Assembly (NCBI GenBank): GCA_000004985.1
Contig: GG738861.1
Direction: 5' to 3' (one strand)
DNA from: Naegleria gruberi
Lineage: Eukaryota
Length of the DNA: 64,000 nucleotides
Translations under genes and position numbers: made by a program
Notes under the pieces: generated by a model
What the model was told of the DNA's origin: nothing
Databases searched by the model: none
What the model saw: only the letters and a program-made list of their open reading frames with translations
In this document: piece after piece, positions 166-60,177 of the stretch
How the letters are laid out: each line of letters starts with the position of its first letter
Position numbering within the stretch: the first letter of the stretch is position 1

Positions 166-238
166 CGCCCACCGTGGGGGTCGAACCCACGACCACAAGG
201 TTAAGAGCCTTGCGCTCTACCGACTGAGCTAGACGGGC
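166..238 (-). tRNA. tRNA-Lys (anticodon CUU), eukaryotic nuclear type
   Basis: Reverse complement GCCCGTCTAGCTCAGTCGGTAGAGCGCAAGGCTCTTAACCTTGTGGTCGTGGGTTCGACCCCCACGGTGGGCG folds as a cloverleaf (7-bp acceptor stem with G-U pairs, GTTCGA T-loop, CTCTTAA anticodon loop). It is near-identical to metazoan tRNA-Lys-CTT. Confidence 0.85.
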
Positions 239-5233: not shown

Positions 5234-5675
5234 AAAAGATTGTAAATAAATATCGACTTTTTCAACTTTCCAATACTAAAACCCAACAGGTTGGCACCTT
5301 ATCAGTCAACTAGCCTCAGACAAACAAAGTGGAGAAAATCAAAAAGACAAAAGACTACAGCACCACAGGTTCCCAAGTTGTCTCCAACCTCAGTACTGAT
5401 GTGGCTCGACGATGCTTAACTTCTCAAATCGGACGGGATGAGGTGCATTCATCGTGATATGGCCGTAGCCATTCATAACCCTAAAACAATGAATGTAAAG
5501 AATATTGAAAATCTTAATACTGAATTATTGGAGGTCGACACAAATACCAAATCAGACAGTTGTAGTATTATGGAACAACAAAAACAACACAGATTCAATA
5601 TCGATAATATTATCATTTCATCCTTTGTCTTACAAGAATCAAGAAAATTACAATTTATTAATAAAATTAAAAAAA

Positions 5676-16209: not shown

Positions 16210-16379
16210 GCCAAAAATAGGTTGGGAATTCTCAACAAGGGAATTTTAGCAAACAAAACAATAACATTATATATTGGTCACAAATTACAGCTAAATCATC
16301 CTTTTGAGGAACTGTGATGGATCTTTGAGGTAGTGGCTTTACAACCTCCATTCCCAAAAACTCATTAGAAATACTTTTT

Positions 16380-17626
16380 GGTATAGTGATTGTAAACTTG
16401 GCACAACAAGTTGTGAAAAGCTTCAGAAGTATTCCAACTTTCAACTATTGAAAATAATTGTTTGAATTTTCTCTATGGAGTGTGTACTTTCAAAATTTCA
16501 ATTAATATTGATGAGGGTGGACAAACGCGCTGAAGCAAATCGCTTATTAGCACAATTTCTGAATGCGGTCAAACTTTCGAATAAATTCTGAGGATCTAAG
16601 AGTGGGAATTTTTCAATTCAAAACACAAAAGAAAATGAGTAAAAAGTATAACATTGGTATTATTGGTGCAGGTAATATTGGATCTGCATTGGCCAAACAT
16701 TTGGTTGCTTTGGGTCATTCAGTTGTTATTGCAAATTCTCGTGGTCCTCAAACTTTGATCGAAGTTGAAAAGGAAACAGGAGCAAAGGCAGTTCAAATCT
16801 CTGAAACAATCAAAGACATTGTCATTGTAACCATTCCATTCAAAAATATTGAACAATTACCTAAAGATTTATTTAGAAATGCTCCAAAAGATTTGGTCAT
16901 TATTGATACTAATAATTATTATCCAGGATTTAGAGATGCTCCAATTGAATCGTTGGATAAACTTGAATTAACTCATAGTGAATGGGTTTCCAAAACAATT
17001 GGAAGATCAGTTGTTAAGGTTTTTAACAATATTTCAACCTACAGTTTGAAATTCAAGCCAACTCAAGATAAAAAACACAGAGTGGCTCTTCCAATTGCAG
17101 GAGATGATGAAAAGGCTAAGGCAATTGTCTTTGATTTGGTTGACCAAATTGGTTTTGATCCAGTTGATGCAGGTTCTTTGAAAGATTCTTGGAGACAACA
17201 TCCAGGAACTCCTTCCTATGGTTGTGACTATGGCAAGGAAGAATTGCAAGAAAAATTGAAACAAGCTGATCAATCTCTCTCACTTAAAAAACTTCAACAA
17301 GCTTTCGTTCTCTATGGACAAGCAGTTGAACAGTTCAATAAGGAGAAGGGAAAGGAGTGGACAATGGTAGAATATCTCTTACAAGGAGGAGAAGAGTTCA
17401 ATGATAAGTTTGTTGATATTCAACGTTCACTTTATCAATAAATATTCTATACGTGTTAGTGATACCAACATAAATTATCAATTCGTTGTTGCTTTTTACA
17501 CTTTTGCAAGTATATATAATTGAGAGAAATTCCAAGGCGAACCAACACACTTGGTGAAGCATAGTCATACATTGATTTTTGGTAGAGGACGTGTCGAATA
17601 CTTGATATGAGGTCAATATCATTTTT
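16380..17626. repeat. Inverted repeat copy A (~1.25 kb), partner at 41262..42440
   Basis: The reverse complement of 41262–42440 aligns base-for-base apart from scattered substitutions and one 58-bp indel (extra sequence about 17489–17546 in copy A). It spans ~190 bp upstream, the whole F420-reductase-like ORF, and ~185 bp downstream. Confidence 0.8.
16635..17441 (+). CDS. NADPH-dependent F420 reductase-like / COG2085 dinucleotide-binding oxidoreductase, copy 1 (intronless, prokaryote-type)
   Basis: N-terminal Rossmann motif IGIIGAGNIGSALAKHL, VVIDTNN and DAG motifs match the PF03807 F420_oxidored family. It differs from copy 2 at 4–5 aa. Confidence 0.8.
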   Translation: MSKKYNIGIIGAGNIGSALAKHLVALGHSVVIANSRGPQTLIEVEKETGAKAVQISETIKDIVIVTIPFKNIEQLPKDLFRNAPKDLVIIDTNNYYPGFRDAPIESLDKLELTHSEWVSKTIGRSVVKVFNNISTYSLKFKPTQDKKHRVALPIAGDDEKAKAIVFDLVDQIGFDPVDAGSLKDSWRQHPGTPSYGCDYGKEELQEKLKQADQSLSLKKLQQAFVLYGQAVEQFNKEKGKEWTMVEYLLQGGEEFNDKFVDIQRSLYQ

Positions 17627-20062
17627 CAATTCATCTGAGGCATATTTAAGAGCTATAGGACAGATATCAAGTACTTTCTTGAAGAATTCACGATTTCCTT
17701 TGAGTCTTTCAGAAATAAATTGTAAATTTTGGAATTTTTCCTCAGCTGTAAGGAGTGACAATACGAAGTCTCCATCATCTCTGAAATGGGGTGGAACATG
17801 TTCGAGTACTTGGTTTGTTATTTCATTAGATCCAATAATTACGCTCTCCGTAATCTGATTTGCATCTAAATACTCTATGATGGGTATTAATCTACAAATA
17901 CCTTCCAAAAATGAAATATCTTGTTTAAGATTTTCTGGAAATTGAGTAAAATCAAGCATGTAACAGTCTCGTGTTTGGTAAATCAGATATATGGCGTTTG
18001 AAACATCATACTCAAAGACATGTATCCATTGTTGAGTTAAACTTGGAGGAAATTTGAATTCACAAGTTTGTACATTGGTTTCCTCTTCATGATAAGAATA
18101 CACCATTGAGAGAATTGGATAGGTAAATATGTCCTCAACATGGAAGTTCATTCGCTTCACTTCTTGCATGACAAATTCTCTATCCATTAACAACTGAGCA
18201 CCAGCAAAGTATAACGGCTCTCTTGTAATGTTACTTGTTTCAGACATGGTTTGGTAAATATCCAATTGTTCTTCCTTATTTTCTATAAGATGATAGTCAA
18301 ATATCTTGTGAGGAGCTTGGTTACATTCTATTAAAAGCTTCTTTACAAGTTTTGTATTTGCTCTCAATCGTGGGGATGCATAACGAAAGAGGTCAACTTC
18401 ACCATACTTGACAACTTTCTCAATAAACTCTTCATTGTCTCTTAAAGATTGAGGGAAAATTTGCAAGATTTTGCTCTTGGATTTGAGAGGGAGAGTTCTA
18501 TATAGTGCTGGTATGCAACCACTTGCTATTTGGAAATCCAATCTCACAGCCTCTGAGAAGTGTGGATAAATCTCTGCTTTCTGTTCGATGCAATGTCTAC
18601 ACAGTTCAAGACTATTTCTAATACATTCTGGTGCATGTTTGATATTCAAGTCTAAAACGAAAAATTTACGATAAAGTGAAATGTCAGATCTGATTTCTTC
18701 TCCAAATAAATCAAATATGTCGTTGTAGGGAGTCAACATTGAATCTGCAACTTCCTTTGAGTTTCTAATTTTGTCAGAGGCAAATCGTATTGCATTCTCA
18801 GCCCCATAAACTTTCGAATGAATTGCAATATTTACCACTTCAATGTTATTTCGAATATCTTCAGAAGCAAAGGCAAGGGCCTCAGGGAATTTGTCAACAA
18901 TTTGTGAAACCAGTTCTATATCATTCTTCCAATGATGAGGCATTAGTTGTAATAAACACCCTTCAATAGAGAGCATTTGTTTCAAAGTGTCAGTACTCAA
19001 TTTTTCGTAATGTTCTATTGGTACTACTGTTGGTGATATCAAATTGGCATCCACAAGTTTTTTCCAAAATTCAAAATCGAAAGCATCACAATATTTGAAA
19101 AGTTGAACTTGTAGACCATATCTCTTGATCCAATCAAACATGAAATCACAATCTTGGGTGAGAGTAGAATTCATTAGAAATTCCAATGATCCACATTCCA
19201 ATATAAATTCAGGATCATTACGCCAACCAAAAGGTACAATCTTCATAAATTGTGAAGTACCTTTCCCACTCTTCAATGCCTCAATAACGAATGCCTGTTC
19301 TGGCCATGTCTTTCTCAAAAAGAAAATAACCTTTGGATTAGATCTAATGGCCTCCAACACTATCTCTCTATAACTTGTAATACTTTTGCAAGTTGACTTA
19401 ATTCCATACTGATATGCTAACCAAGCTTCAGAATGTAGTGGAATAAAATTGATCAGCCTATTCGGATTCTTAAACAAACTAATCAGTCCTTGCTGTGGCT
19501 TATTAGAGAAATCACACTTGTACAATACATCTTTCAGTTTTGGATCTTTCTTCAAGCTCTCAATATTTAAAGTCATATTGATAACATCCAAGTCACCTCT
19601 CAACCTCTCTGAAGCATATCGAAAGGCACTCTGGTGATGTTTTACACATTCCATCACAAATTCCTTATCATCCTTCAATTCCTCACTCGCAAATTTCATC
19701 AACAATCCTCTCTCCTTCACAACAGCTAACATATGAAACCTATCATTTGGAAATGGAATTGGATTCTGTTTAATGTACTTGATCACATAGGTCCAATCAT
19801 TCCGATGCAAACTAACAAGTTGATACAAGTATTCATAATTTTGCAGAGTATTCATTCGGGTTGTATGGTACCTATTTTTCAGACCGTTTAAACATTTTAA
19901 TGAAAAAGATTGATCATTGCCATCATCGTCATCATTATCGGCACCATTCGATGATGAATAATGATGAAAGATACCATCTATGAGAATTATTTTGGTGCTC
20001 ATTTTTTTTTTGATTTTAAAACATTGAAATTCTTTATTGGGAATTTGTTTCCTTATTGGCAT
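17456..20062 (-). CDS. DUF4116 repeat-containing protein (868 aa)
   Basis: At least six DUF4116-like repeat units (e.g. DKEFVMECVKHHQSAFRYASERLRGD, PEALAFASEDIRNNIEVV, NEEFIEKVVKYGEVDLFRYASPRLRAN). The alternative ATG at 20002 follows a poly-T tract. The last ~56 codons lie inside inverted-repeat copy A. Confidence 0.65.
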   Translation of the reverse strand: MPIRKQIPNKEFQCFKIKKKMSTKIILIDGIFHHYSSSNGADNDDDDGNDQSFSLKCLNGLKNRYHTTRMNTLQNYEYLYQLVSLHRNDWTYVIKYIKQNPIPFPNDRFHMLAVVKERGLLMKFASEELKDDKEFVMECVKHHQSAFRYASERLRGDLDVINMTLNIESLKKDPKLKDVLYKCDFSNKPQQGLISLFKNPNRLINFIPLHSEAWLAYQYGIKSTCKSITSYREIVLEAIRSNPKVIFFLRKTWPEQAFVIEALKSGKGTSQFMKIVPFGWRNDPEFILECGSLEFLMNSTLTQDCDFMFDWIKRYGLQVQLFKYCDAFDFEFWKKLVDANLISPTVVPIEHYEKLSTDTLKQMLSIEGCLLQLMPHHWKNDIELVSQIVDKFPEALAFASEDIRNNIEVVNIAIHSKVYGAENAIRFASDKIRNSKEVADSMLTPYNDIFDLFGEEIRSDISLYRKFFVLDLNIKHAPECIRNSLELCRHCIEQKAEIYPHFSEAVRLDFQIASGCIPALYRTLPLKSKSKILQIFPQSLRDNEEFIEKVVKYGEVDLFRYASPRLRANTKLVKKLLIECNQAPHKIFDYHLIENKEEQLDIYQTMSETSNITREPLYFAGAQLLMDREFVMQEVKRMNFHVEDIFTYPILSMVYSYHEEETNVQTCEFKFPPSLTQQWIHVFEYDVSNAIYLIYQTRDCYMLDFTQFPENLKQDISFLEGICRLIPIIEYLDANQITESVIIGSNEITNQVLEHVPPHFRDDGDFVLSLLTAEEKFQNLQFISERLKGNREFFKKVLDICPIALKYASDELKNDIDLISSIRHVLYQKSMYDYASPSVLVRLGISLNYIYLQKCKKQQRIDNLCWYH

Positions 20063-36573: not shown

Positions 36574-38169
36574 ATGACGAACATTACCTCTGATAAAACC
36601 AAGGTACACTTCTTCAGAGATGAATTTATGGAAGGAAGATTTAGAAGACCAGAACCTTTTCTAACTGTTGACTATAATTCACAGACCAATCGACTTGTTA
36701 CAGCAGGTATTCAAACCGATATTAAAGTTTGGGAAATTTCCTACTCTGACGATGATGTCATGTTCAAGCTTGTTGCTGTGATGAATCCAATCTATGACAG
36801 TGCCAAGGTTGTCAATATTGCTAGATGGAGTCCTTGTGGTAATTATATTGCTACAGGATGTGGTAGAGGTGCTGTTATTATTTGGAAAAAGAAGGGTCTA
36901 ATTGATCAAGGCTCACAACAGAAAAAGGCTGCTGCTTTGAATATTCAAGATGATGAAACAGATCTATCCTTCTTGGAAAGTGAAGTCAAGCCAACTGAAG
37001 AATGGATTATTGTAAAGAGATTTGGTGGCGAAGAAGGAGAAGATGTTTGGGATTTGAATTGGTCACCTCCACTCATTGATCATAAAACTGGAAAGACAAC
37101 CTACTTGTTGGCAACTACATCCATGGATAGAAGACTCAAAGTTTATCAACCATTGGAAACTTATGATATTTTGCATGAATATATTTCTGATGTCCACTCA
37201 TCGATTGGTGGTGTGGCTTGGGATCCTCTAGGTTATTATTTGGCCATTCAATTGAGTGCTGCTAAAAAGTCGATACTGTTTGGGTTGAATCAAGAAAAAT
37301 TCTCAATTCTAGGTCCAAGAAGTCAACAATCATCAAATACTGCTGGTGAATCTAAGAAAAAGAAGAAGGGAGCTCCAGTCTTTGAAAAGGTTGGAACTAT
37401 CAAGAAGAGTGCTAAGGATAATAAGGAATTATTCCAAGGAGATAATCATACCATTCAGTACAGATCTACAGTGTTGAATAGTGTTAGAAGATTGTCCTTC
37501 TCTCCAGATGGTACCTTCTTATTCACAACAGCAGGTTTATCCAACTCTTTACACATGTTCTATAGAAATATATGGAAGAAGCCAGTCAAGTGTATTGCTG
37601 GCCTGACTTCCACTTGTCCAGTTGTTAGATTCTCACCAATTCTTTACAAATCCATTGCTGAAAAATCAATGCTGCCTTATAGAATGATGGCTTGTGCCTC
37701 CTCGAAGGATGAAATTATTATTTTCGATACCGAGTCCAATAATGTATTATACAGAGCTCAGAAATTATTCACACAAACAATTACCGATGTTGCTTGGAGC
37801 AATGACGGCAATGTTCTCTTTATTTCATCACAAGAAGGGTTGATGGGTATTATTCGATTTGATTCAACTGAACTGGGAGAAAAGTACGATTTACTCTCAG
37901 TCATTACTGAAATGCAAAACAACAGCAGCTCAACAACTGAAACTAATTCAACAACACCTCTCTCACCTCTCCAAACTCACATCTCAAAGATTGGAGAACT
38001 CATCTCTCAGAGTGGTAAATCACTTCAAAAGATTATCCAATCCAATTCAGAGGCACCAAAGGAAGTAGAACAAGTGAATGTTCTTGTTCCTAAGAGAAAG
38101 AATGTTGTAACAACACTTGGTGCAACAACAACAACTTCATCTACAGCAGCAATTATTAATATTGAATAA
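36574..38169 (+). CDS. CHAF1B: Chromatin assembly factor 1 subunit B (CAF-1 p60) WD40 protein
   Basis: WD-repeat protein with VRRLSFSPDGTFLFTTAG (human FRRLSFTPDGSLLLTPAG) and GGVAWDPLGYY motifs. Confidence 0.8.
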   Translation: MTNITSDKTKVHFFRDEFMEGRFRRPEPFLTVDYNSQTNRLVTAGIQTDIKVWEISYSDDDVMFKLVAVMNPIYDSAKVVNIARWSPCGNYIATGCGRGAVIIWKKKGLIDQGSQQKKAAALNIQDDETDLSFLESEVKPTEEWIIVKRFGGEEGEDVWDLNWSPPLIDHKTGKTTYLLATTSMDRRLKVYQPLETYDILHEYISDVHSSIGGVAWDPLGYYLAIQLSAAKKSILFGLNQEKFSILGPRSQQSSNTAGESKKKKKGAPVFEKVGTIKKSAKDNKELFQGDNHTIQYRSTVLNSVRRLSFSPDGTFLFTTAGLSNSLHMFYRNIWKKPVKCIAGLTSTCPVVRFSPILYKSIAEKSMLPYRMMACASSKDEIIIFDTESNNVLYRAQKLFTQTITDVAWSNDGNVLFISSQEGLMGIIRFDSTELGEKYDLLSVITEMQNNSSSTTETNSTTPLSPLQTHISKIGELISQSGKSLQKIIQSNSEAPKEVEQVNVLVPKRKNVVTTLGATTTTSSTAAIINIE

Positions 38170-38315: not shown

Positions 38316-39185
38316 ATGACAAAATTCTCATCACTGAAAAACGCAATTCCTCGTAAAACCAAGAAGGAACGTTCCCAACCAAAATGGCGTAGGGATTTGG
38401 GTTATGGTACATTGGAAAAACACAAGGATTATAAAGTGAGATCCCGAAAGGCCCATCAAATTGAGGAACAAAAAAAGTTATTACACGAACAAATCAAGAA
38501 TAAGAATGAAGATGAATACTTTATCGATATGGCACACGCCACAAAAACCGATACAGGAACAACAGTTATTGAAAAGATTCCAACAATGAAGAAGAAAAAG
38601 GAAGCCTTGAATAATTTAAAAAAAACAAAGAAGGAACAACGATTGTTTGTACAACAAAATGCGGAAAAGAATTTGAATTTACTCAGAATGAAATTACAAA
38701 TTATAAATAATAATATTGAAAAACTGAGAAGAGGACTTGGATTTTTGGAAGTTGCTTCCAAGTCTGATAAGAAAATTAAGCATAAAGTATTTTTGAAGAG
38801 TAAGGAAGAGCTGGAAACTTTCGATCCTGTGGAATATTTCGATACTGATCCTTTACTGCTCAATCAAACTCATAACAGAGTGAAACGAAAGACTTTGGCT
38901 GAACAATCTGTTCAAGCATATGCACCAAACGCAGGTATTGATGCTTACACTACACCAGCAACTGATAATGCCACACTTGCAGAATATAAAAAGTTGGAAA
39001 AGTTAATTTCCAAGAGAGAAGTTATTGAAAAGACAATTAATGATATTGAAGTAGCTCTCCAATTAACACTCTCATCAGACAAGGTTGAAAAGATTGAAAG
39101 AGACAAATCAACTGAAAGAAAGAATCTTAAAGGTGACTATTCTGATGTAAAGACTGTTCAATTCAAGAAGGAAAGAAAAAGATAA
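38316..39185 (+). CDS. UTP11: U3 snoRNP / SSU processome protein UTP11
   Basis: N-terminal AIPRKTKKERSQP and GxLEKHKDYK motifs, plus a C-terminal KRKR tail as in UTP11L. Confidence 0.85.
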   Translation: MTKFSSLKNAIPRKTKKERSQPKWRRDLGYGTLEKHKDYKVRSRKAHQIEEQKKLLHEQIKNKNEDEYFIDMAHATKTDTGTTVIEKIPTMKKKKEALNNLKKTKKEQRLFVQQNAEKNLNLLRMKLQIINNNIEKLRRGLGFLEVASKSDKKIKHKVFLKSKEELETFDPVEYFDTDPLLLNQTHNRVKRKTLAEQSVQAYAPNAGIDAYTTPATDNATLAEYKKLEKLISKREVIEKTINDIEVALQLTLSSDKVEKIERDKSTERKNLKGDYSDVKTVQFKKERKR

Positions 39186-39349: not shown

Positions 39350-41158
39350 TTATTCCTTCTTCTTTTTAGCTACTCTTGGTGGTTCAGACTTTTCTTCTGG
39401 CTCACTATCTTCGTCTTTCTTGTCACTCTTTTCTGACTTGTTTCTCTTTACAGTTCTCTTACGTTTCTTTTCTCCATCGGCTGATGATGAGGATGACTTT
39501 TTCTTCTTCTTTTCTTCGCCAGTTGTTGTGGAAGAGCTTGGAGCACTGGATGAGCTTGCTTCGGAAGGTTTTGATGAAGAGCCTTCCTTTGAAGATGTTG
39601 CAAGGGAGGCACTGCTTGAAGATGGTCTAATTGACTCAATTTCTGGAACTAAGGCCTTTAACTTTTTAATGACATCTGTCTTTGAAGGCCAAATGCTACG
39701 CAATTCCTTGATAAATTGGTCTAGCTCCTTTCTCTTATCGAGATGTTCCTCAACTGGCTTACCCTTGTTATGGCTATCGACATACTCAAAGGTTTTGTTA
39801 ATAATTTGCTTAATAAGCTCGTTGGTTTCTTGAGAGAGTGAAAGTCTCATGTTTGCCTCCTTTCTAAATTTATCTCGAAGAGTTTCATAAACAGTGGCAG
39901 AATAAGTAAGGGTTGTCTCATTCAATTTGTTGGCAACTTCCCTAAAGAGGGCCTCTTTGAGTGCAGTCTTCAAGGTGGAAATCTCTGCTGGATAAGCAAC
40001 TTGCTCATGCTCATTGACGAGTGACTTCATTCGATCCTTGATTGTCTTTGGACCAAAGTTAAGTGGTGGAATTTTTCTCAACCTTTTGAGAAGTGTATTT
40101 GGTACACCCTTCTTGAAATGCTTCAAACGAGCAAGAGCCAACTTTTTAATTCCTTCATTGAGTTCTGGAGGAATGGTCTTGTAGGATTTAGAAGAGTCAA
40201 ACCCGAGTGATTTAGAGAGTTCTTCGAGCTCAGTGATTGCTTCTTCAATTTCTTCATGGAATTTAGAATTCTTTTGATCATCTCCACCAAGAGTATCATC
40301 TTCATCACTGGATGATTCATCGGAATCTTCTTCAGAATCTTCATCATCATAGAATGTGTGCTTTTCTAATTGTTGAGCTTCTTGGTGTGGAATCATTGGG
40401 AAATCAGTAGCAATTACATCATATTCTGTATCATCAATGAATGAATCCTCACTATCATAATCGAATCTTCTCTTTTCTTCCTCCTTCTTCTTCTTAGTGC
40501 TTTTACTACTACCTCTTTCTGGAAGAGTGAGAGAATATTTGAGTTGTCTTTCTCTCTTTGTAATGTTGTGAATCACATCATTCAAACGATTTGCATGAGA
40601 GTTTGTCTCGGACAATAATTCCCAATCCAATTCGTCAGGATCAATCTCACCTCTATCGGATTGTGTTAATAATCCAGTAGTAAGAATGGTATTGGTCTTT
40701 AATTTTTCTCTTCTCTGTTTGTCTTTTTCTTGTTCTGATGGTTGTGGTTGTGTTGGAGCACTTTCCGATTCGAAAACATATTCCTCCTCTTCGTCATTAT
40801 TGCTGGCCAAGAAACCAAAACCTATCGTAGATGATGAAGATGCTTCATTGTTATTATCACTTGTGGTAGTAGCATTTGTTTCTGTTGGTAATTTAGATGG
40901 TTCCTCATCCTCCATCATTTCACCCTCCGATTCCTCATCATCATCAACTACCTTTTTAGCTTTTCGTTTGGGTGTTGAAACTCTTTTTCCAGAGGTTTTT
41001 TCAATAAACTTCTTTGCATCCCGTAAAAGTTTCTTAAAATTGATTACAGTTGTAGGATATTTGTCAGCGAGTGGATCTTCATAACTATCAAAATCGATGG
41101 GTGTAATGGGAATGTAGAATCTCAGAGATGGTTTTGCAGCAGGTTGAGTATTGTCCAT
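39350..41158 (-). CDS. Acidic Ser/Lys-rich nuclear protein (hypothetical; possibly a histone-chaperone partner)
   Basis: 602 aa with poly-acidic stretches (DDEDSEEDSDESSSDEDD) and KKKKE tails. It lies head-to-tail next to CAF-1 p60 and UTP11. No family motif recognised. Confidence 0.45.
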   Translation of the reverse strand: MDNTQPAAKPSLRFYIPITPIDFDSYEDPLADKYPTTVINFKKLLRDAKKFIEKTSGKRVSTPKRKAKKVVDDDEESEGEMMEDEEPSKLPTETNATTTSDNNNEASSSSTIGFGFLASNNDEEEEYVFESESAPTQPQPSEQEKDKQRREKLKTNTILTTGLLTQSDRGEIDPDELDWELLSETNSHANRLNDVIHNITKRERQLKYSLTLPERGSSKSTKKKKEEEKRRFDYDSEDSFIDDTEYDVIATDFPMIPHQEAQQLEKHTFYDDEDSEEDSDESSSDEDDTLGGDDQKNSKFHEEIEEAITELEELSKSLGFDSSKSYKTIPPELNEGIKKLALARLKHFKKGVPNTLLKRLRKIPPLNFGPKTIKDRMKSLVNEHEQVAYPAEISTLKTALKEALFREVANKLNETTLTYSATVYETLRDKFRKEANMRLSLSQETNELIKQIINKTFEYVDSHNKGKPVEEHLDKRKELDQFIKELRSIWPSKTDVIKKLKALVPEIESIRPSSSSASLATSSKEGSSSKPSEASSSSAPSSSTTTGEEKKKKKSSSSSADGEKKRKRTVKRNKSEKSDKKDEDSEPEEKSEPPRVAKKKKE

Positions 41159-41261
41159 TTTTTTATTTTAATTTTTAAATTTATTTACCAACAATTAGAC
41201 TTCCCGCCAATTTTCATATGATTATTCAGAACAATGCCAATTTTATTGGAATAGTAAAAAG

Positions 41262-42440
41262 AAAAATGATATTGACCTCATATCGAGTATTCAACACGTA
41301 CTCTACCAAAAATCAATATATGACTATGCTTCACCAAGCAACAACGAATTGACAATTTATGTTGTTGGTATCACTAACACGTATAGAATATTTATTGATA
41401 AAGTGAACGTTGAATATCAACAAACTTATCATTAAACTCTTCTCCTCCTTGTAAGAGATATTCTACCATTGTCCACTCCTTGCCCTTCTCCTTATTAAAT
41501 TGTTCAACTGCTTGTCCATAGAGAACGAAAGCTTGTTGAAGTTTTTTAAGTGAGAGAGATTGATCAGCTTGTTTCAATTTCTCTTGCAATTCTTCCTTAC
41601 CATAGTCACAGCCATAGGAAGGAGTTCCTGGATGTTGTCTCCAGGAATCTTTCAAAGAACCTGCATCAACTGGATCAAAACCAATTTGTTCAACCAAATC
41701 AAAGACAATTGCCTTAGCCTTTTCATCATCTCCTGCAATTGGAAGAGCCACTCTGTGTTTTTTATCTTTGCTTGGCTTGAATTTCAAACTATAGGTTGAA
41801 ATATTGTTAAAAACCTTAACAACTGATCTTCCAATTGTTTTGGAAACCCATTCACTATGAGTTAATTCAAGTTTATCCAACGATTCAATTGGAGCATCTC
41901 TAAATCCTGGATAATAATTATTAGTATCAATAATGACCAAATCTTTTGGAGCATTTCTAAATAAATCCTTTGGTAATTGTTCAATATTTTTGAATGGAAT
42001 GGTTACAATGACAATGTCTTTGATTGTTTCAGAGATTTGAACTGCCTTTGCTCCTGTTTCCTTTTCAACATCAATCAAAGTTTGAGGACCACGAGAATTT
42101 GCAATGACAACTGAATGACCCAAAGCAACCAAATGTTTGGCCAATGCAGATCCAATATTACCTGCTCCAATAATACCAATGTTATACTTTTTGCTCATTT
42201 TCTTTTTTGTTTTGAATTGAAAAATTCCCACTCTCTGATCCTCAGAATTTATTCGAAAGTTTGACCGCATTCAGAAATTGTGCTTTTAAGCGATTTGCAT
42301 AAAGCACGTTTGTCCACCCTCATCAATATTAATTGAAATTTTGAAAGTACTCACTCTCCATAGAGAAAATTCAAACAATTATTTTCAATATTTGAAAGTT
42401 TGAATACTTCTGAAGATTTTCACAACTTGTTGTGCCAAGT
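41262..42440. repeat. Inverted repeat copy B (~1.18 kb), partner at 16380..17626
   Basis: See copy A. It lacks the 58-bp insertion, and its outer edges diverge at the same positions as in copy A. Confidence 0.8.
41392..42198 (-). CDS. NADPH-dependent F420 reductase-like / COG2085 oxidoreductase, copy 2
   Basis: About 98% protein identity to copy 1 (substitutions L→Q, Q→K, E→D, T/Q→S/K, D→E). Confidence 0.8.
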   Translation of the reverse strand: MSKKYNIGIIGAGNIGSALAKHLVALGHSVVIANSRGPQTLIDVEKETGAKAVQISETIKDIVIVTIPFKNIEQLPKDLFRNAPKDLVIIDTNNYYPGFRDAPIESLDKLELTHSEWVSKTIGRSVVKVFNNISTYSLKFKPSKDKKHRVALPIAGDDEKAKAIVFDLVEQIGFDPVDAGSLKDSWRQHPGTPSYGCDYGKEELQEKLKQADQSLSLKKLQQAFVLYGQAVEQFNKEKGKEWTMVEYLLQGGEEFNDKFVDIQRSLYQ

Positions 42441-43114
42441 TTACAATCACTGTACCATAAAGTAGTACAATCATCAACACCATTTGACTTATGATAAACA
42501 ACTAAATTGACAGTATCATTACCTTCAACACTATACCATAATGTAGTTCTAATAAGTTTTTGGGAATCAAATTGGAAGCAGCTGTTACAACAACATTAAT
42601 ATTACATTGTTTTTATTACAATGACAGATGAAAAAGAAGAGGGTCCTCAACCAGATGAAATGAGCAATTAAAATTGTTGAAACACTTTGAATTTCTCTTT
42701 GATTGCTATGAACAATTCCAATTCTGCAAGAAGTGAAAAGTTTGCACTGAGAGTTTGGGATCACTTTCTAGCTCGTATTAAACACTTTCCACTCACAATA
42801 ATTGGATGATTACAATTAATCTCAGTAGATAAACATTGTAACTTCATGCAACAAGATTTCTGCAACTTTTCGTGGAACTGAACTCTCAGTACCATAAACA
42901 ATATTTCAAATTTATTGGTGTTATTCCAGCTTTAAATAAAGGATATTCAAGGGTTTGCTTTTAGATACCACGTTTTTAAGAATGGGAAATGTTCATGCCA
43001 ATGATTTCTTGAAAAAAAGAAAAGAGACCTCAACCAAACATTCATAGAACCAATTGTTCATTTATTAATCACTAATAATAAATCACACAACAAGCAAATA
43101 AAAGGTTGACAAAA

Positions 43115-60105: not shown

Positions 60106-60177
60106 GGGACCATGGTCTAGTGGTATGATTCTCGCTTTGGGTGCGAGAGGCCGTGGGTTCGATTCCCACTGGTCCCC
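60106..60177 (+). tRNA. tRNA-Pro (anticodon UGG)
   Basis: GGGACCATGGTCTAGTGGTATGATTCTCGCTTTGGGTGCGAGAGGCCGTGGGTTCGATTCCCACTGGTCCC is near-identical to eukaryotic tRNA-Pro, and the anticodon loop TTTGGGT gives UGG. It overlaps the spurious ORF 60038..60253. Confidence 0.85.

What the first reader, a model, noticed from the sequence alone, without database searches (positions are those of the whole stretch)
16635..17441. Duplicated intronless NADPH-dependent F420-reductase/COG2085-like gene is a horizontal-transfer candidate
The protein (IGIIGAGNIGSALAKHLVALGH...VVIDTNNYYP...GFDPVDAGSL) has the architecture of archaeal/bacterial NADPH-dependent F420 reductase (Npd) and COG2085 dinucleotide-binding enzymes, a family that is rare in eukaryotes outside STEAP N-domains and P5CR. 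It is intronless in a genome where most neighbours carry introns. It sits in a cassette that has duplicated (second copy 41392–42198).
Basis: partly seen in the sequence, partly recalled or inferred. Interest (0 to 1): 0.65.

Follow-up and report, generated by a model that had tools for sequence, protein, structure and literature searches.

The report
Bacterial-origin NADPH oxidoreductase gene, duplicated, in Naegleria
This is a real, duplicated gene of the amoeba Naegleria gruberi for a small NADPH-binding enzyme that an ancestor of Naegleria and Willaertia probably acquired from bacteria long ago, but a 2013 survey already listed it as such a transfer, so it is an ordinary, known case.

Summary
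An intronless 268-codon gene lies at 16635-17441 (+), with a second copy at 41392-42198 (-). The copies sit in inverted ~1.25-kb blocks 24 kb apart, 96% identical in DNA, and differ at 4 amino acids (dS 0.10, dN/dS 0.06). The window is Naegleria gruberi: the copies are NAEGRDRAFT_66113 and NAEGRDRAFT_66125. The protein matches Pfam PF03807 and has an FNO/STEAP-N-domain fold (AlphaFold pLDDT 96). It fails the NpdG/Fno equivalog model (40 vs 150 bits), so "F420 reductase" is a family label, not a shown function.

Horizontal transfer from bacteria is supported. The only named eukaryotic relatives are a third N. gruberi paralogue and one Willaertia magna gene; these four form one clade (91-98% NJ bootstrap). 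All other close relatives (44-56% identity) are bacterial, from many phyla. The transfer is old: codon usage is fully Naegleria-like, and the paralogue split predates the Naegleria/Willaertia divergence.

Copy B and the paralogue already appear in the "LGT-derived genes" table of Clarke et al. 2013 (PMC4053784). Interest is low.

The parts
16635..17441 (+). Copy A coding sequence: 268 codons plus stop, no intron. It is NAEGRDRAFT_66113 / XP_002678490.
   Evidence: ORF. The translation is identical to P0212. PF03807 at E = 2.9e-20. AlphaFold2 model with mean pLDDT 96.2.
41392..42198 (-). Copy B coding sequence: 268 codons plus stop, no intron. It is NAEGRDRAFT_66125 / XP_002678608.
   Evidence: ORF. 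Identical to P0001. It differs from copy A at 19 codons, 4 of them non-synonymous; dS 0.10 and dN/dS 0.063.
16372..17627 (+). Duplicated block A, inferred to be the parental copy. It comprises the upstream region, the gene, and a 3' flank that overlaps the coding 3' end of the neighbouring DUF4116 gene.
   Evidence: blastn and repeat finder. The 3' flank 17456-17627 lies inside the 868-aa ORF 17456..20062 (-).
41261..42464 (-). Duplicated block B, inferred to be the derived copy, inverted relative to A and about 24 kb away.
   Evidence: It lacks 55 nt that are present in A at 17495-17549.
41261..41338 (-). Non-coding relic of the 3' end of the DUF4116 gene, carried along with copy B. This is the basis for inferring that A was copied to B.
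   Evidence: 78 nt, 94.9% identical to 17550-17627. It lies between the stop codon of copy B and the start of the 602-aa ORF 39350..41158.
16563..16634 (+). In-frame upstream ATG and a 24-codon leader, conserved in both copies. It is probably 5' UTR rather than coding sequence.
   Evidence: 3 differences in 72 nt between the copies, a rate typical of the non-coding parts of the block. Bacterial, Willaertia and paralogue proteins all start right at the Rossmann strand. The NCBI models start at 16635.
17456..20062 (-). Neighbouring gene: DUF4116-repeat protein of 868 aa in a single ORF. It gives eukaryotic context for copy A.
   Evidence: Pfam PF13475 at E = 3.4e-57.
39350..41158 (-). Neighbouring gene: HUN-domain (ubinuclein/HPC2-like) protein of 602 aa in a single ORF. 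It gives eukaryotic context for copy B.
   Evidence: Pfam PF08729 at E = 1.8e-08.

Best explanation
The two loci are recent inverted duplicates of one nuclear Naegleria gruberi gene. The gene encodes a soluble NADPH-binding oxidoreductase with the FNO/STEAP-N-domain fold (Pfam PF03807, COG2085).

Origin. The lineage entered Heterolobosea by a single ancient transfer from a bacterium, before Naegleria and Willaertia diverged. It then duplicated once to give NAEGRDRAFT_75850 and the 66113/66125 lineage. Much later it duplicated again in N. gruberi, when a ~1.25-kb segment (promoter region, gene and 3' flank) was copied from the 16.4-17.6 kb site into the 41.3-42.5 kb site in inverted orientation. 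All copies have stayed under purifying selection and are fully adapted to host codon usage.

Mechanism (inferred). The N-terminal Rossmann domain (G11-x-G13-x-x-G16, followed by S35-R36 for the 2'-phosphate) binds NADPH. Hydride passes to a small acceptor held by the subfamily-invariant motifs DTxNYYP, K-x-F-N and SWRQxPGT. The C-terminal helical region, absent from FNO and STEAP domains, would cap or dimerise the site. The acceptor is unknown. F420 is unlikely, because eukaryotes are not known to make it. A flavin, quinone or other electrophile is more plausible.
For: Shown:
- Organism and gene models.
- Family and fold: PF03807 at 73 bits; AlphaFold2 pLDDT 96.2; best structural matches are 4HUJ (31% identity), STEAP2/3/4 N-domains and Thermobifida FNO.
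- The GxGxxG and 'SR' motifs align with the corresponding segments of STEAP3 (GSRNP) and A. fulgidus FNO (GSRR). Invariant columns across 64 homologues are listed.
- Phyletic pattern: three searches of 5.8 billion proteins returned no named eukaryotes other than N. gruberi (three genes) and W. magna.
- 598 of the first 600 motif matches in a one-genome-per-species prokaryote collection encode relatives. The best 80 are all bacterial and span at least 10 phyla, at 44-56% identity.
- NJ trees: copy A + copy B 100%, plus Willaertia 98-100%, plus NAEGRDRAFT_75850 91-98%, across six alignment and distance variants.
- The ~25-residue C-terminal insertion is shared only with bacterial-type proteins P0121 and P0126, plus one acidobacterial protein with a possibly unrelated long tail, among 377 sequences. 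P0126 sits on a clearly bacterial contig.
- Not contamination: both copies are flanked by RING, DUF4116, NIF, HUN, Utp11, HIRA-like and DDAH genes. The Willaertia gene lies among eukaryotic genes in an independent assembly.
- Old transfer: GC 0.348 vs 0.351 for neighbours; GC3 0.23 vs 0.30 +/- 0.05; CAI-like index 0.80 vs 0.72 +/- 0.05.
- Purifying selection: dN/dS 0.063.
- Independent published support: Clarke et al. 2013, Additional file 2, 'LGT-derived genes', lists XP_002678608 and XP_002669187.
- The F420 review finds no evidence that eukaryotes make F420.
Against: - The sister group of the heterolobosean clade is unresolved (10-19% bootstrap), so no donor lineage is established.
- The trees are distance-based only; no maximum-likelihood program was available.
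- Only the best 120 hits of each protein search are listed.
- No N. fowleri or N. lovaniensis orthologue appeared. Under the single-transfer scenario that requires losses, and their genomes were not searched directly.
- No expression data were examined.
- The substrate and the role of the C-terminal region are inference only.
- Bacterial gene neighbourhoods give no functional clue.
Confidence: 0.8

Rival explanations
1. Vertical descent. The gene is an ancient eukaryotic PF03807 member retained only in a few lineages after many losses, and its similarity to bacterial proteins reflects slow evolution.
For: The gene is fully host-like in composition. It is present in two genera plus an older paralogue. 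A second, unidentified eukaryote (contig L001, with an intron-split AP mu gene next to P0004) also carries a family member.
Against: No other named eukaryote occurs among the best 120 hits of three searches of a database that includes nr, UniRef and EukProt, while hundreds of bacterial clusters score higher than any such eukaryote could. The unidentified eukaryote's protein is nearer to bacterial sequences (59-61%) than to the heterolobosean ones (about 50%), and groups with them in only 0-4% of bootstraps. The published maximum-likelihood screen also called these genes LGT.
Confidence: 0.06
2. Several independent bacterial transfers into N. gruberi and Willaertia, rather than one ancestral event. 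This is what the different 'donors' in the 2013 table imply (Geobacter for copy B, Kribbella for the paralogue).
For: The 2013 table gives different nearest neighbours for the two paralogues. No synteny exists between the Willaertia locus and either N. gruberi locus. No N. fowleri or N. lovaniensis orthologues were seen.
Against: The four heterolobosean proteins are each other's best hits. They form one clade with 91-98% bootstrap under all settings. They share the rare C-terminal insertion. Nearest-neighbour 'donors' drawn from 2013-era sampling are unreliable.
Confidence: 0.07
3. It is a genuine F420 (or FO) : NADPH oxidoreductase that works on deazaflavin taken up from bacterial prey.
For: It has the same fold and Pfam family as Fno. 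PGAP names many bacterial homologues 'NADPH-dependent F420 reductase'. The profile-to-A. fulgidus FNO alignment keeps the 'TIP' motif, the G-D-D motif and the Ile that aligns with the Ile of FNO's H-T-I-P segment.
Against: The NpdG/Fno equivalog model scores 40.1 bits against a cutoff of 149.8. Identity to solved FNOs is only about 22%. The His of FNO's 'ALHTIP' segment is Asn here, as in STEAPs and 4HUJ, which are not known to use F420. From my own knowledge, not tested here, most bacterial genera carrying the subfamily (Hymenobacter, Spirosoma, Duganella, Myxococcota and others) are not known F420 producers. Eukaryotes are not known to make F420 (PMC8498797).
Confidence: 0.05
4. The second copy is an assembly artefact: divergent haplotypes or a mis-join rather than a true paralogue.
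For: From memory, not checked here, N. gruberi NEG-M is heterozygous and probably polyploid. A Logan-assembled variant (P0213) mixes residues diagnostic of copy A and copy B.
Against: The two blocks lie in inverted orientation on one scaffold, 24 kb apart, with entirely different unique flanks containing different genes. Their 3.6% divergence and a 55-nt indel exceed what alleles would typically show. The derived copy carries a truncated relic of the parental neighbour.
Confidence: 0.04

Closest known systems
Entries XP_002678608 and XP_002669187 in the 'LGT-derived genes' table of Clarke et al. 2013, Genome Biol 14:R11 (PMC4053784, Additional file 2)
   Same: These are the same genes: copy B of this finding and its older paralogue. 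They were called prokaryote-derived by a maximum-likelihood phylogenomic screen with manual inspection.
   Different: The paper lists them without discussion and assigns different nearest neighbours (Geobacter sp. M18 and Kribbella flavida). Copy A (XP_002678490) is not listed. Added here: the Willaertia orthologue, monophyly of all heterolobosean copies, the structure and direction of the inverted duplication, the amelioration and selection statistics, and the long C-terminal form shared with P0121 and P0126.
SMa0349 of Sinorhizobium meliloti (PDB 4HUJ), an uncharacterised COG2085 protein
   Same: It is the best sequence and structure match among solved structures: profile E = 3e-27, Foldseek E = 3e-15, 31% identity, TM 0.81 on the target. 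It shares the GAGxIGS...ANSRGP NADPH motif and K-A-F-N.
   Different: It lacks the DTxNYYP and SWRQxPGT motifs and the ~70-residue helical C-terminal region. Its function is also unknown.
F420H2:NADP+ oxidoreductase (Fno/NpdG; PDB 1JAX/1JAY, 5N2I; TIGR01915)
   Same: Same Pfam family and fold, an NADP(H)-binding Rossmann domain, and a conserved G-D-D...G...D-x-G C-terminal core.
   Different: It scores far below the equivalog cutoff (40 vs 149.8 bits), with about 22% identity. His is replaced by Asn in the segment that aligns with FNO's 'ALHTIP', and there is an extra C-terminal region. The host is not known to have F420.
N-terminal oxidoreductase domain of STEAP2/3/4 metalloreductases
   Same: An FNO-like NADPH-binding domain, 22-27% identical, sharing the G-S-R and A-F-N motifs.
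   Different: STEAP domains are fused to a six-helix haem/FAD membrane domain. This protein is a stand-alone 268-residue soluble protein with its own helical C-terminus.

Membership tests
Pfam PF03807 (F420_oxidored) / COG2085 dinucleotide-binding enzymes | Whole-protein score above the Pfam gathering threshold | tested here: met
   73.1 bits (copy A) and 72.0 bits (copy B) against a cutoff of 21.6; profile positions 2-94 of 94 matched.
Pfam PF03807 (F420_oxidored) / COG2085 dinucleotide-binding enzymes | N-terminal Rossmann GxGxxG motif followed by a Ser-Arg pair at the end of strand 2 (the NADP(H) 2'-phosphate site in FNO and STEAP, according to established structures) | tested here: met
   G11, G13 and G16 are invariant, and S35 and R36 are conserved in at least 90% of 64 homologues. 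They align with the GSR of STEAP3 and the GSRR of FNO. The role of these residues is taken from the literature on those structures, recalled from memory.
Pfam PF03807 (F420_oxidored) / COG2085 dinucleotide-binding enzymes | FNO-like three-dimensional fold | tested here: met
   AlphaFold2 pLDDT 96.2. Foldseek top hits are 4HUJ, STEAP2/3/4 N-domains, 5N2I, 3DTT and 2RAF, all at probability 1.00.
NADPH-dependent F420 reductase, NpdG/Fno (NCBIfam TIGR01915, EC 1.5.1.40) | Score at or above the curated equivalog cutoff | tested here: not met
   40.1 bits against a cutoff of 149.8.
NADPH-dependent F420 reductase, NpdG/Fno (NCBIfam TIGR01915, EC 1.5.1.40) | The organism produces or has access to coenzyme F420 | not testable with these tools
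   Only this window was available. The F420 review states there is no evidence that eukaryotes synthesise F420 as a redox cofactor (PMC8498797).
NADPH-dependent F420 reductase, NpdG/Fno (NCBIfam TIGR01915, EC 1.5.1.40) | Hydride transfer between NADPH and F420 (enzyme activity) | not testable with these tools
   This needs a recombinant enzyme assay.
STEAP metalloreductases | FNO-like domain fused to a C-terminal six-helix ferric-reductase membrane domain | tested here: not met
   The protein ends at residue 268. No Pfam ferric-reductase domain was found. The C-terminus is modelled as four soluble helices. Foldseek aligns only the N-domain of full-length STEAP2/4 (TM on target 0.33-0.36).
Pyrroline-5-carboxylate reductase (ProC) | Score above the TIGR00112 cutoff, and a P5CR dimerisation domain | tested here: not met
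   16.1 bits against a cutoff of 196.75. No P5CR_dimer domain was found by Pfam.
Prokaryote-to-eukaryote laterally transferred genes of Naegleria | Closest relatives outside the recipient lineage are prokaryotic, with a narrow eukaryotic distribution | tested here: met
   The only named eukaryotes are N. gruberi and W. magna. Bacterial relatives at 44-56% identity occur in many phyla.
Prokaryote-to-eukaryote laterally transferred genes of Naegleria | The recipient sequences form a supported clade nested within prokaryotic diversity | tested here: inconclusive
   The heterolobosean clade has 91-98% NJ bootstrap support. The node joining it to a particular bacterial group has only 10-19% support. 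No maximum-likelihood analysis was possible. The published screen required bootstrap above 75%.
Prokaryote-to-eukaryote laterally transferred genes of Naegleria | Physically integrated in the host genome, i.e. not contamination | tested here: met
   Flanked on both sides by eukaryotic genes on the same contig, with host-like codon usage. The orthologue lies in an independent Willaertia assembly among eukaryotic genes.

The most novel reading that the evidence does not exclude
The heterolobosean enzymes descend from the rare 'long-form' bacterial lineage represented by P0121 and P0126. P0126 sits on a 36.6% GC contig. Its rlmD-relA adjacency, which I recall as typical of gammaproteobacteria, makes an amoeba-associated bacterium conceivable. 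On this reading the enzymes act on a deazaflavin or flavin obtained from bacterial prey, which would make them the first F420/FO-linked redox enzymes working in a eukaryote.
Probability: 0.04. Interest if true: 0.6.

Novelty: already known. Interest (0 to 1): 0.15.

Why it matters
It matters little beyond bookkeeping. The case illustrates a well-known pattern: free-living bacterivorous amoebae carry hundreds of bacterial metabolic genes. The 2013 supplementary workbook mentions N. gruberi 431 times, roughly one row per listed gene. This work adds three refinements to the published table entry. First, all heterolobosean copies share one origin, and the transfer predates the Naegleria/Willaertia split. 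Second, the nearest-neighbour 'donors' in the table (Geobacter, Kribbella) are not meaningful. Third, the 'F420 reductase' name propagated by annotation pipelines is not supported for this subfamily. The subfamily itself is very widespread in soil bacteria, has strongly conserved motifs (DTxNYYP, SWRQxPGT), and has no known substrate. That makes it a reasonable target for enzymology, but this is a point about bacterial enzymes, not about this locus.

Tried and rejected
- Exact-sequence contig look-ups for the N. gruberi proteins, including the 292-aa ORFs, found nothing on record. I therefore obtained no annotated context and no transcript contig.
- I tried to name the bacterium carrying P0126 and the eukaryote carrying P0004 through cluster look-ups of their neighbouring proteins. 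All were singletons without names.
- The AlphaFold-database fold search, which would have named organisms, was unavailable. Model coordinates were not exposed, so I could not test whether the invariant residues cluster around the NADPH site.
- Gene-neighbourhood analysis of 83 bacterial loci found no conserved partner; the largest neighbour family occurs in 4 loci. Scattered HxlR, TetR, AraC and LysR regulators nearby are too inconsistent to use.
- There is no synteny between the Willaertia locus and this window.
- The viral-contig scan gave three weak hits at 40-45% identity, so there is no support for a viral vector.
- The metagenome scan found nothing closer than 54%.
- Literature searches for the locus tags in main text found nothing.
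- I could not find the published intron density of N. gruberi in the held papers. The Cell 2010 genome paper is not held. My recollection, unverified here, is that only about a third of N. gruberi genes have introns.
- Contamination was considered and rejected.
- A recent, N. gruberi-specific transfer was considered and rejected.
Full report

Yes. The window has an ORF at 16563..17441 (+) and a near-identical one at 41392..42270 (-), each 292 aa from the first ATG. They give the 268-aa proteins that NCBI annotates.

The window is Naegleria gruberi. Copy A is identical to XP_002678490 (NAEGRDRAFT_66113). Copy B is identical to XP_002678608 (NAEGRDRAFT_66125). Both lie on a 507-kb scaffold.

Homologues from bacteria, Willaertia and the N. 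gruberi paralogue all start directly at the Rossmann strand. The 72-nt in-frame leader differs between the copies at a non-coding-like rate, 3 of 72. The 268-aa model is therefore the likely protein.

**2. The duplication**

The repeat finder and blastn agree. 16372-17494 matches 42464-41336 in inverted orientation (1129 nt, 96.4%). 17550-17627 matches 41338-41261 (78 nt, 94.9%). Copy B lacks a 55-nt stretch present in copy A between these two segments. Nothing else in the 64 kb is duplicated.

The 'cassette' is therefore one gene, about 190-260 nt of upstream sequence and a short 3' flank.

In copy A the 3' flank is the coding 3' end of the convergent 868-aa DUF4116 gene (17456..20062, minus strand). 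In copy B the same sequence is an intergenic relic with the 55-nt deletion. I infer that A is the parent and B the derived copy. This is inference, not proof.

Within the coding sequence, 19 codons differ and 4 of those changes are non-synonymous. Nei-Gojobori estimates are dS 0.10, dN 0.006 and dN/dS 0.063. Both copies have been under purifying selection since the duplication.

No tRNA, known RNA family or tandem repeat sits at the block boundaries.

**3. What the protein is**

- Both copies match Pfam PF03807 at 72-73 bits against a 21.6-bit cutoff.
- An AlphaFold2 model built on 64 homologues is confident throughout (mean pLDDT 96.2, pTM 0.93).
- Its best structural matches are 4HUJ (SMa0349, uncharacterised, 31% identity), the STEAP2/3/4 N-terminal domains, Thermobifida FNO (about 22% identity), 3DTT and 2RAF.
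- The G11-x-G13-x-x-G16 motif and the S35-R36 pair align with the corresponding segments of STEAP3 and A. fulgidus FNO. From established structures, recalled from memory, those segments hold the NADP(H) 2'-phosphate.
- The subfamily has its own invariant motifs: D91-T92-x-N94-Y-Y96-P97, K128-x-F130-N131 and S185-W-R-Q-x-P190.
- It also has a helical C-terminal region of about 70 residues that FNO and STEAP domains lack.

The gene is not a demonstrable F420 reductase:

- The NCBIfam equivalog TIGR01915 (npdG) scores 40.1 bits against a cutoff of 149.8.
- The His in FNO's 'ALHTIP' segment aligns with Asn here, as in STEAPs and 4HUJ.
- The F420 review states there is no evidence that eukaryotes synthesise F420 as a redox cofactor (PMC8498797).

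The PGAP name 'NADPH-dependent F420 reductase' on many bacterial homologues is a family label. Across 83 bacterial loci there is no conserved neighbour; the largest neighbour family occurs in 4 loci. Genomic context therefore gives no substrate clue.

My best mechanistic reading is a soluble NADPH-dependent hydride-transfer enzyme acting on an unidentified small acceptor. This is inference.

**4. Is it a horizontal transfer?**

The evidence supports it.

*Phyletic pattern.* I ran three searches of a 5.8-billion-protein collection that includes nr, UniRef and EukProt, using copy A, a profile of the eukaryotic sequences, and the paralogue as queries. The only named eukaryotes returned were N. 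gruberi (copies A and B plus NAEGRDRAFT_75850, 52% identical) and Willaertia magna (KAL9656700.1, 66% identical). Every other named hit was bacterial: Hymenobacter, Duganella, Janthinobacterium, Sphingobium, Corallococcus, Paraburkholderia, Microvirga and Alicyclobacillus, among others.

In a one-genome-per-species prokaryote collection, 598 of the first 600 motif matches encode relatives. The best 80 are all bacterial, at 44-56% identity. They span Pseudomonadota, Bacteroidota, Acidobacteriota, Verrucomicrobiota, Gemmatimonadota, Actinomycetota, Myxococcota, Chloroflexota, Eremiobacterota, Nitrospirota and Bacillota. None of those 80 is archaeal.

*Phylogeny.* I built neighbour-joining trees from 103 non-redundant sequences, with 4HUJ and STEAP3 as outgroups. 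Bootstrap support across six combinations of columns and distance corrections was:

| Grouping | Support |
|---|---|
| Copy A + copy B | 100% |
| + Willaertia | 98-100% |
| + NAEGRDRAFT_75850 | 91-98% |

The branching order places the split between the two N. gruberi lineages before the Naegleria/Willaertia divergence. That fits a single acquisition in or before their common ancestor. The sister group is unresolved (10-19% support).

*A rare shared character.* A ~25-residue insertion in the C-terminal region occurs in only 7 of 377 sequences: the four heterolobosean proteins, P0121, P0126, and one acidobacterial protein whose long tail may be unrelated. Copy A, NAEGRDRAFT_75850, P0121 and P0126 also share the WRQH variant of the WRQQ motif; the Willaertia protein has WRQQ.

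P0126 lies on an unmistakably bacterial contig carrying relA, rlmD, scpA/scpB, trpS-type aaRS and yafQ, with 36.6% GC. The full 'long' architecture therefore exists in bacteria. I could not name that bacterium.

*Not contamination, and not recent.*

- Both copies are embedded among ordinary eukaryotic genes: RING finger, DUF4116, NIF phosphatase, HUN/ubinuclein-like, Utp11, HIRA-like WD40 and eukaryotic-type DDAH.
- The Willaertia gene lies among eukaryotic genes in an independent assembly.
- Composition is fully host-like:

| Measure | This gene | 27 neighbouring ORFs |
|---|---|---|
| GC | 0.348 | 0.351 +/- 0.023 |
| GC3 | 0.23 | 0.30 +/- 0.05 |
| CAI-like index | 0.80 | 0.72 +/- 0.05 |

That is what an old transfer predicts.

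*The intron argument.* It does not hold. Utp11 (profile 1-242 of 242) and DDAH (1-291 of 291) are complete in single ORFs. So are the 531-aa WD40 gene, the 868-aa DUF4116 gene and the 602-aa HUN gene. Some genes in the window do look split, for example ORF pairs with non-ATG starts. Being intronless is nonetheless ordinary here. I recall, but could not verify in the held literature, that only about a third of N. gruberi genes contain introns.

**5. Already known?**

Yes, in substance. Clarke et al. 2013 (Genome Biol 14:R11, PMC4053784) ran a phylogenomic LGT screen on five amoebal proteomes, including N. gruberi. The screen used maximum-likelihood trees, required bootstrap support above 75%, and included manual inspection.

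Their Additional file 2, sheet 'LGT-derived genes', lists XP_002678608 (copy B) with nearest neighbour Geobacter sp. M18. It lists XP_002669187 (the paralogue) with nearest neighbour Kribbella flavida. Copy A is not listed. The methods text mentions special handling of paralogues but is cut off in the passage I read.

No paper in the library mentions the locus tags in its main text.

This analysis adds:

- the Willaertia orthologue;
- the single origin of all heterolobosean copies, which makes the two different published 'donors' uninformative;
- the anatomy and direction of the inverted duplication;
- the selection and amelioration statistics;
- the failure of the F420-reductase equivalog test;
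- the link to long-form bacterial proteins.

**6. Other eukaryotes**

One metagenomic homologue, P0004 (JGI 3300062526, 22-kb contig, 35% GC), sits 0.5 kb from an AP mu-subunit gene. That gene is split between a Clat_adaptor_s ORF and an Adap_comp_sub ORF by an intron-sized gap of about 95 nt, so the contig is eukaryotic.

P0004 is closer to bacterial sequences (59-61%) than to the heterolobosean clade (about 50%), and joins that clade in at most 4% of bootstraps. It probably represents a separate acquisition by an unidentified protist.

Scans of viral contigs (three hits at 40-45%) and JGI metagenome contigs (best 54%) found nothing closer.

**7. Verdict**

The feature is real and correctly assigned to its family. 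The horizontal-transfer reading is well supported, but the transfer is ancient, of a common kind, and already recorded in the literature. The enzyme's substrate is unknown, and the 'F420' label is unsupported.

Main remaining uncertainties:
- No maximum-likelihood tree was possible, and no donor is resolved.
- N. fowleri and N. lovaniensis genomes were not searched directly.
- No expression evidence was examined.

Noticed in passing
Protein P0213 (Logan assembly, 1106-nt contig); compare window 16563-17441 and 41392-42270: This 292-aa variant in the same 90% cluster mixes residues diagnostic of copy A (TQKK, LVDQIG) and copy B (EDQ, IDVEKE, PSKDKK). It could reflect gene conversion between the inverted copies, a third allele or strain, or a chimeric short-read assembly.
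   Followed up: partly
L001:6360-8741 (JGI metagenome 3300062526, contig Ga0606088_0054): An unidentified eukaryote carries an intronless family member (P0004) next to an intron-split AP mu-subunit gene. P0004 is closer to bacterial sequences than to the Naegleria/Willaertia clade, which suggests a second, independent acquisition. The same contig also has bacterial-looking Pyr_redox_2 and erythromycin-esterase genes.
   Followed up: partly
L004:2094-2999 (Logan SRR24908176_662) and L005 (Logan SRR22388317): The bacterial-type proteins P0126 and P0121 share the rare ~25-residue C-terminal insertion and the WRQH motif variant with the heterolobosean proteins. P0126's contig has 36.6% GC and an rlmD-relA / scpA-scpB / trpS gene order. 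The organism could not be named.
   Followed up: partly
window 5352-5470 (-): A complete 5S rRNA gene (Rfam RF00001, 105 bits) lies on its own between protein-coding ORFs, i.e. a dispersed 5S gene outside any rDNA unit.
   Followed up: no
window 166-238 (-) and 60106-60177 (+): tRNA-Lys(CTT) and tRNA-Pro(TGG) genes.
   Followed up: no
window 36574-38169 (+), 38316-39185 (+), 39350-41158 (-): A HIRA/CAF1B-like WD40 gene and a HUN-domain (ubinuclein/HPC2-like) gene lie within 1.2 kb of each other, with Utp11 between them. Their products would be partners in the HIR histone-chaperone complex. All three are single uninterrupted ORFs.
   Followed up: no
PMC4053784, Additional file 2, sheet 'LGT-derived genes': The published table assigns the two paralogues different putative donors (Geobacter sp. 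M18 and Kribbella flavida), although the paralogues form one clade here. Nearest-neighbour donor calls from 2013-era sampling appear unreliable for this family. Copy A (XP_002678490) is missing from the table.
   Followed up: yes
window 17438-17443 and 41390-41395: An AATAAA hexamer overlaps the TAA stop codon in both copies (CAATAAATATTC). The Willaertia gene has AATAAA-like strings about 40 nt downstream of its stop instead. In DNA this AT-rich, the match may be chance.
   Followed up: no
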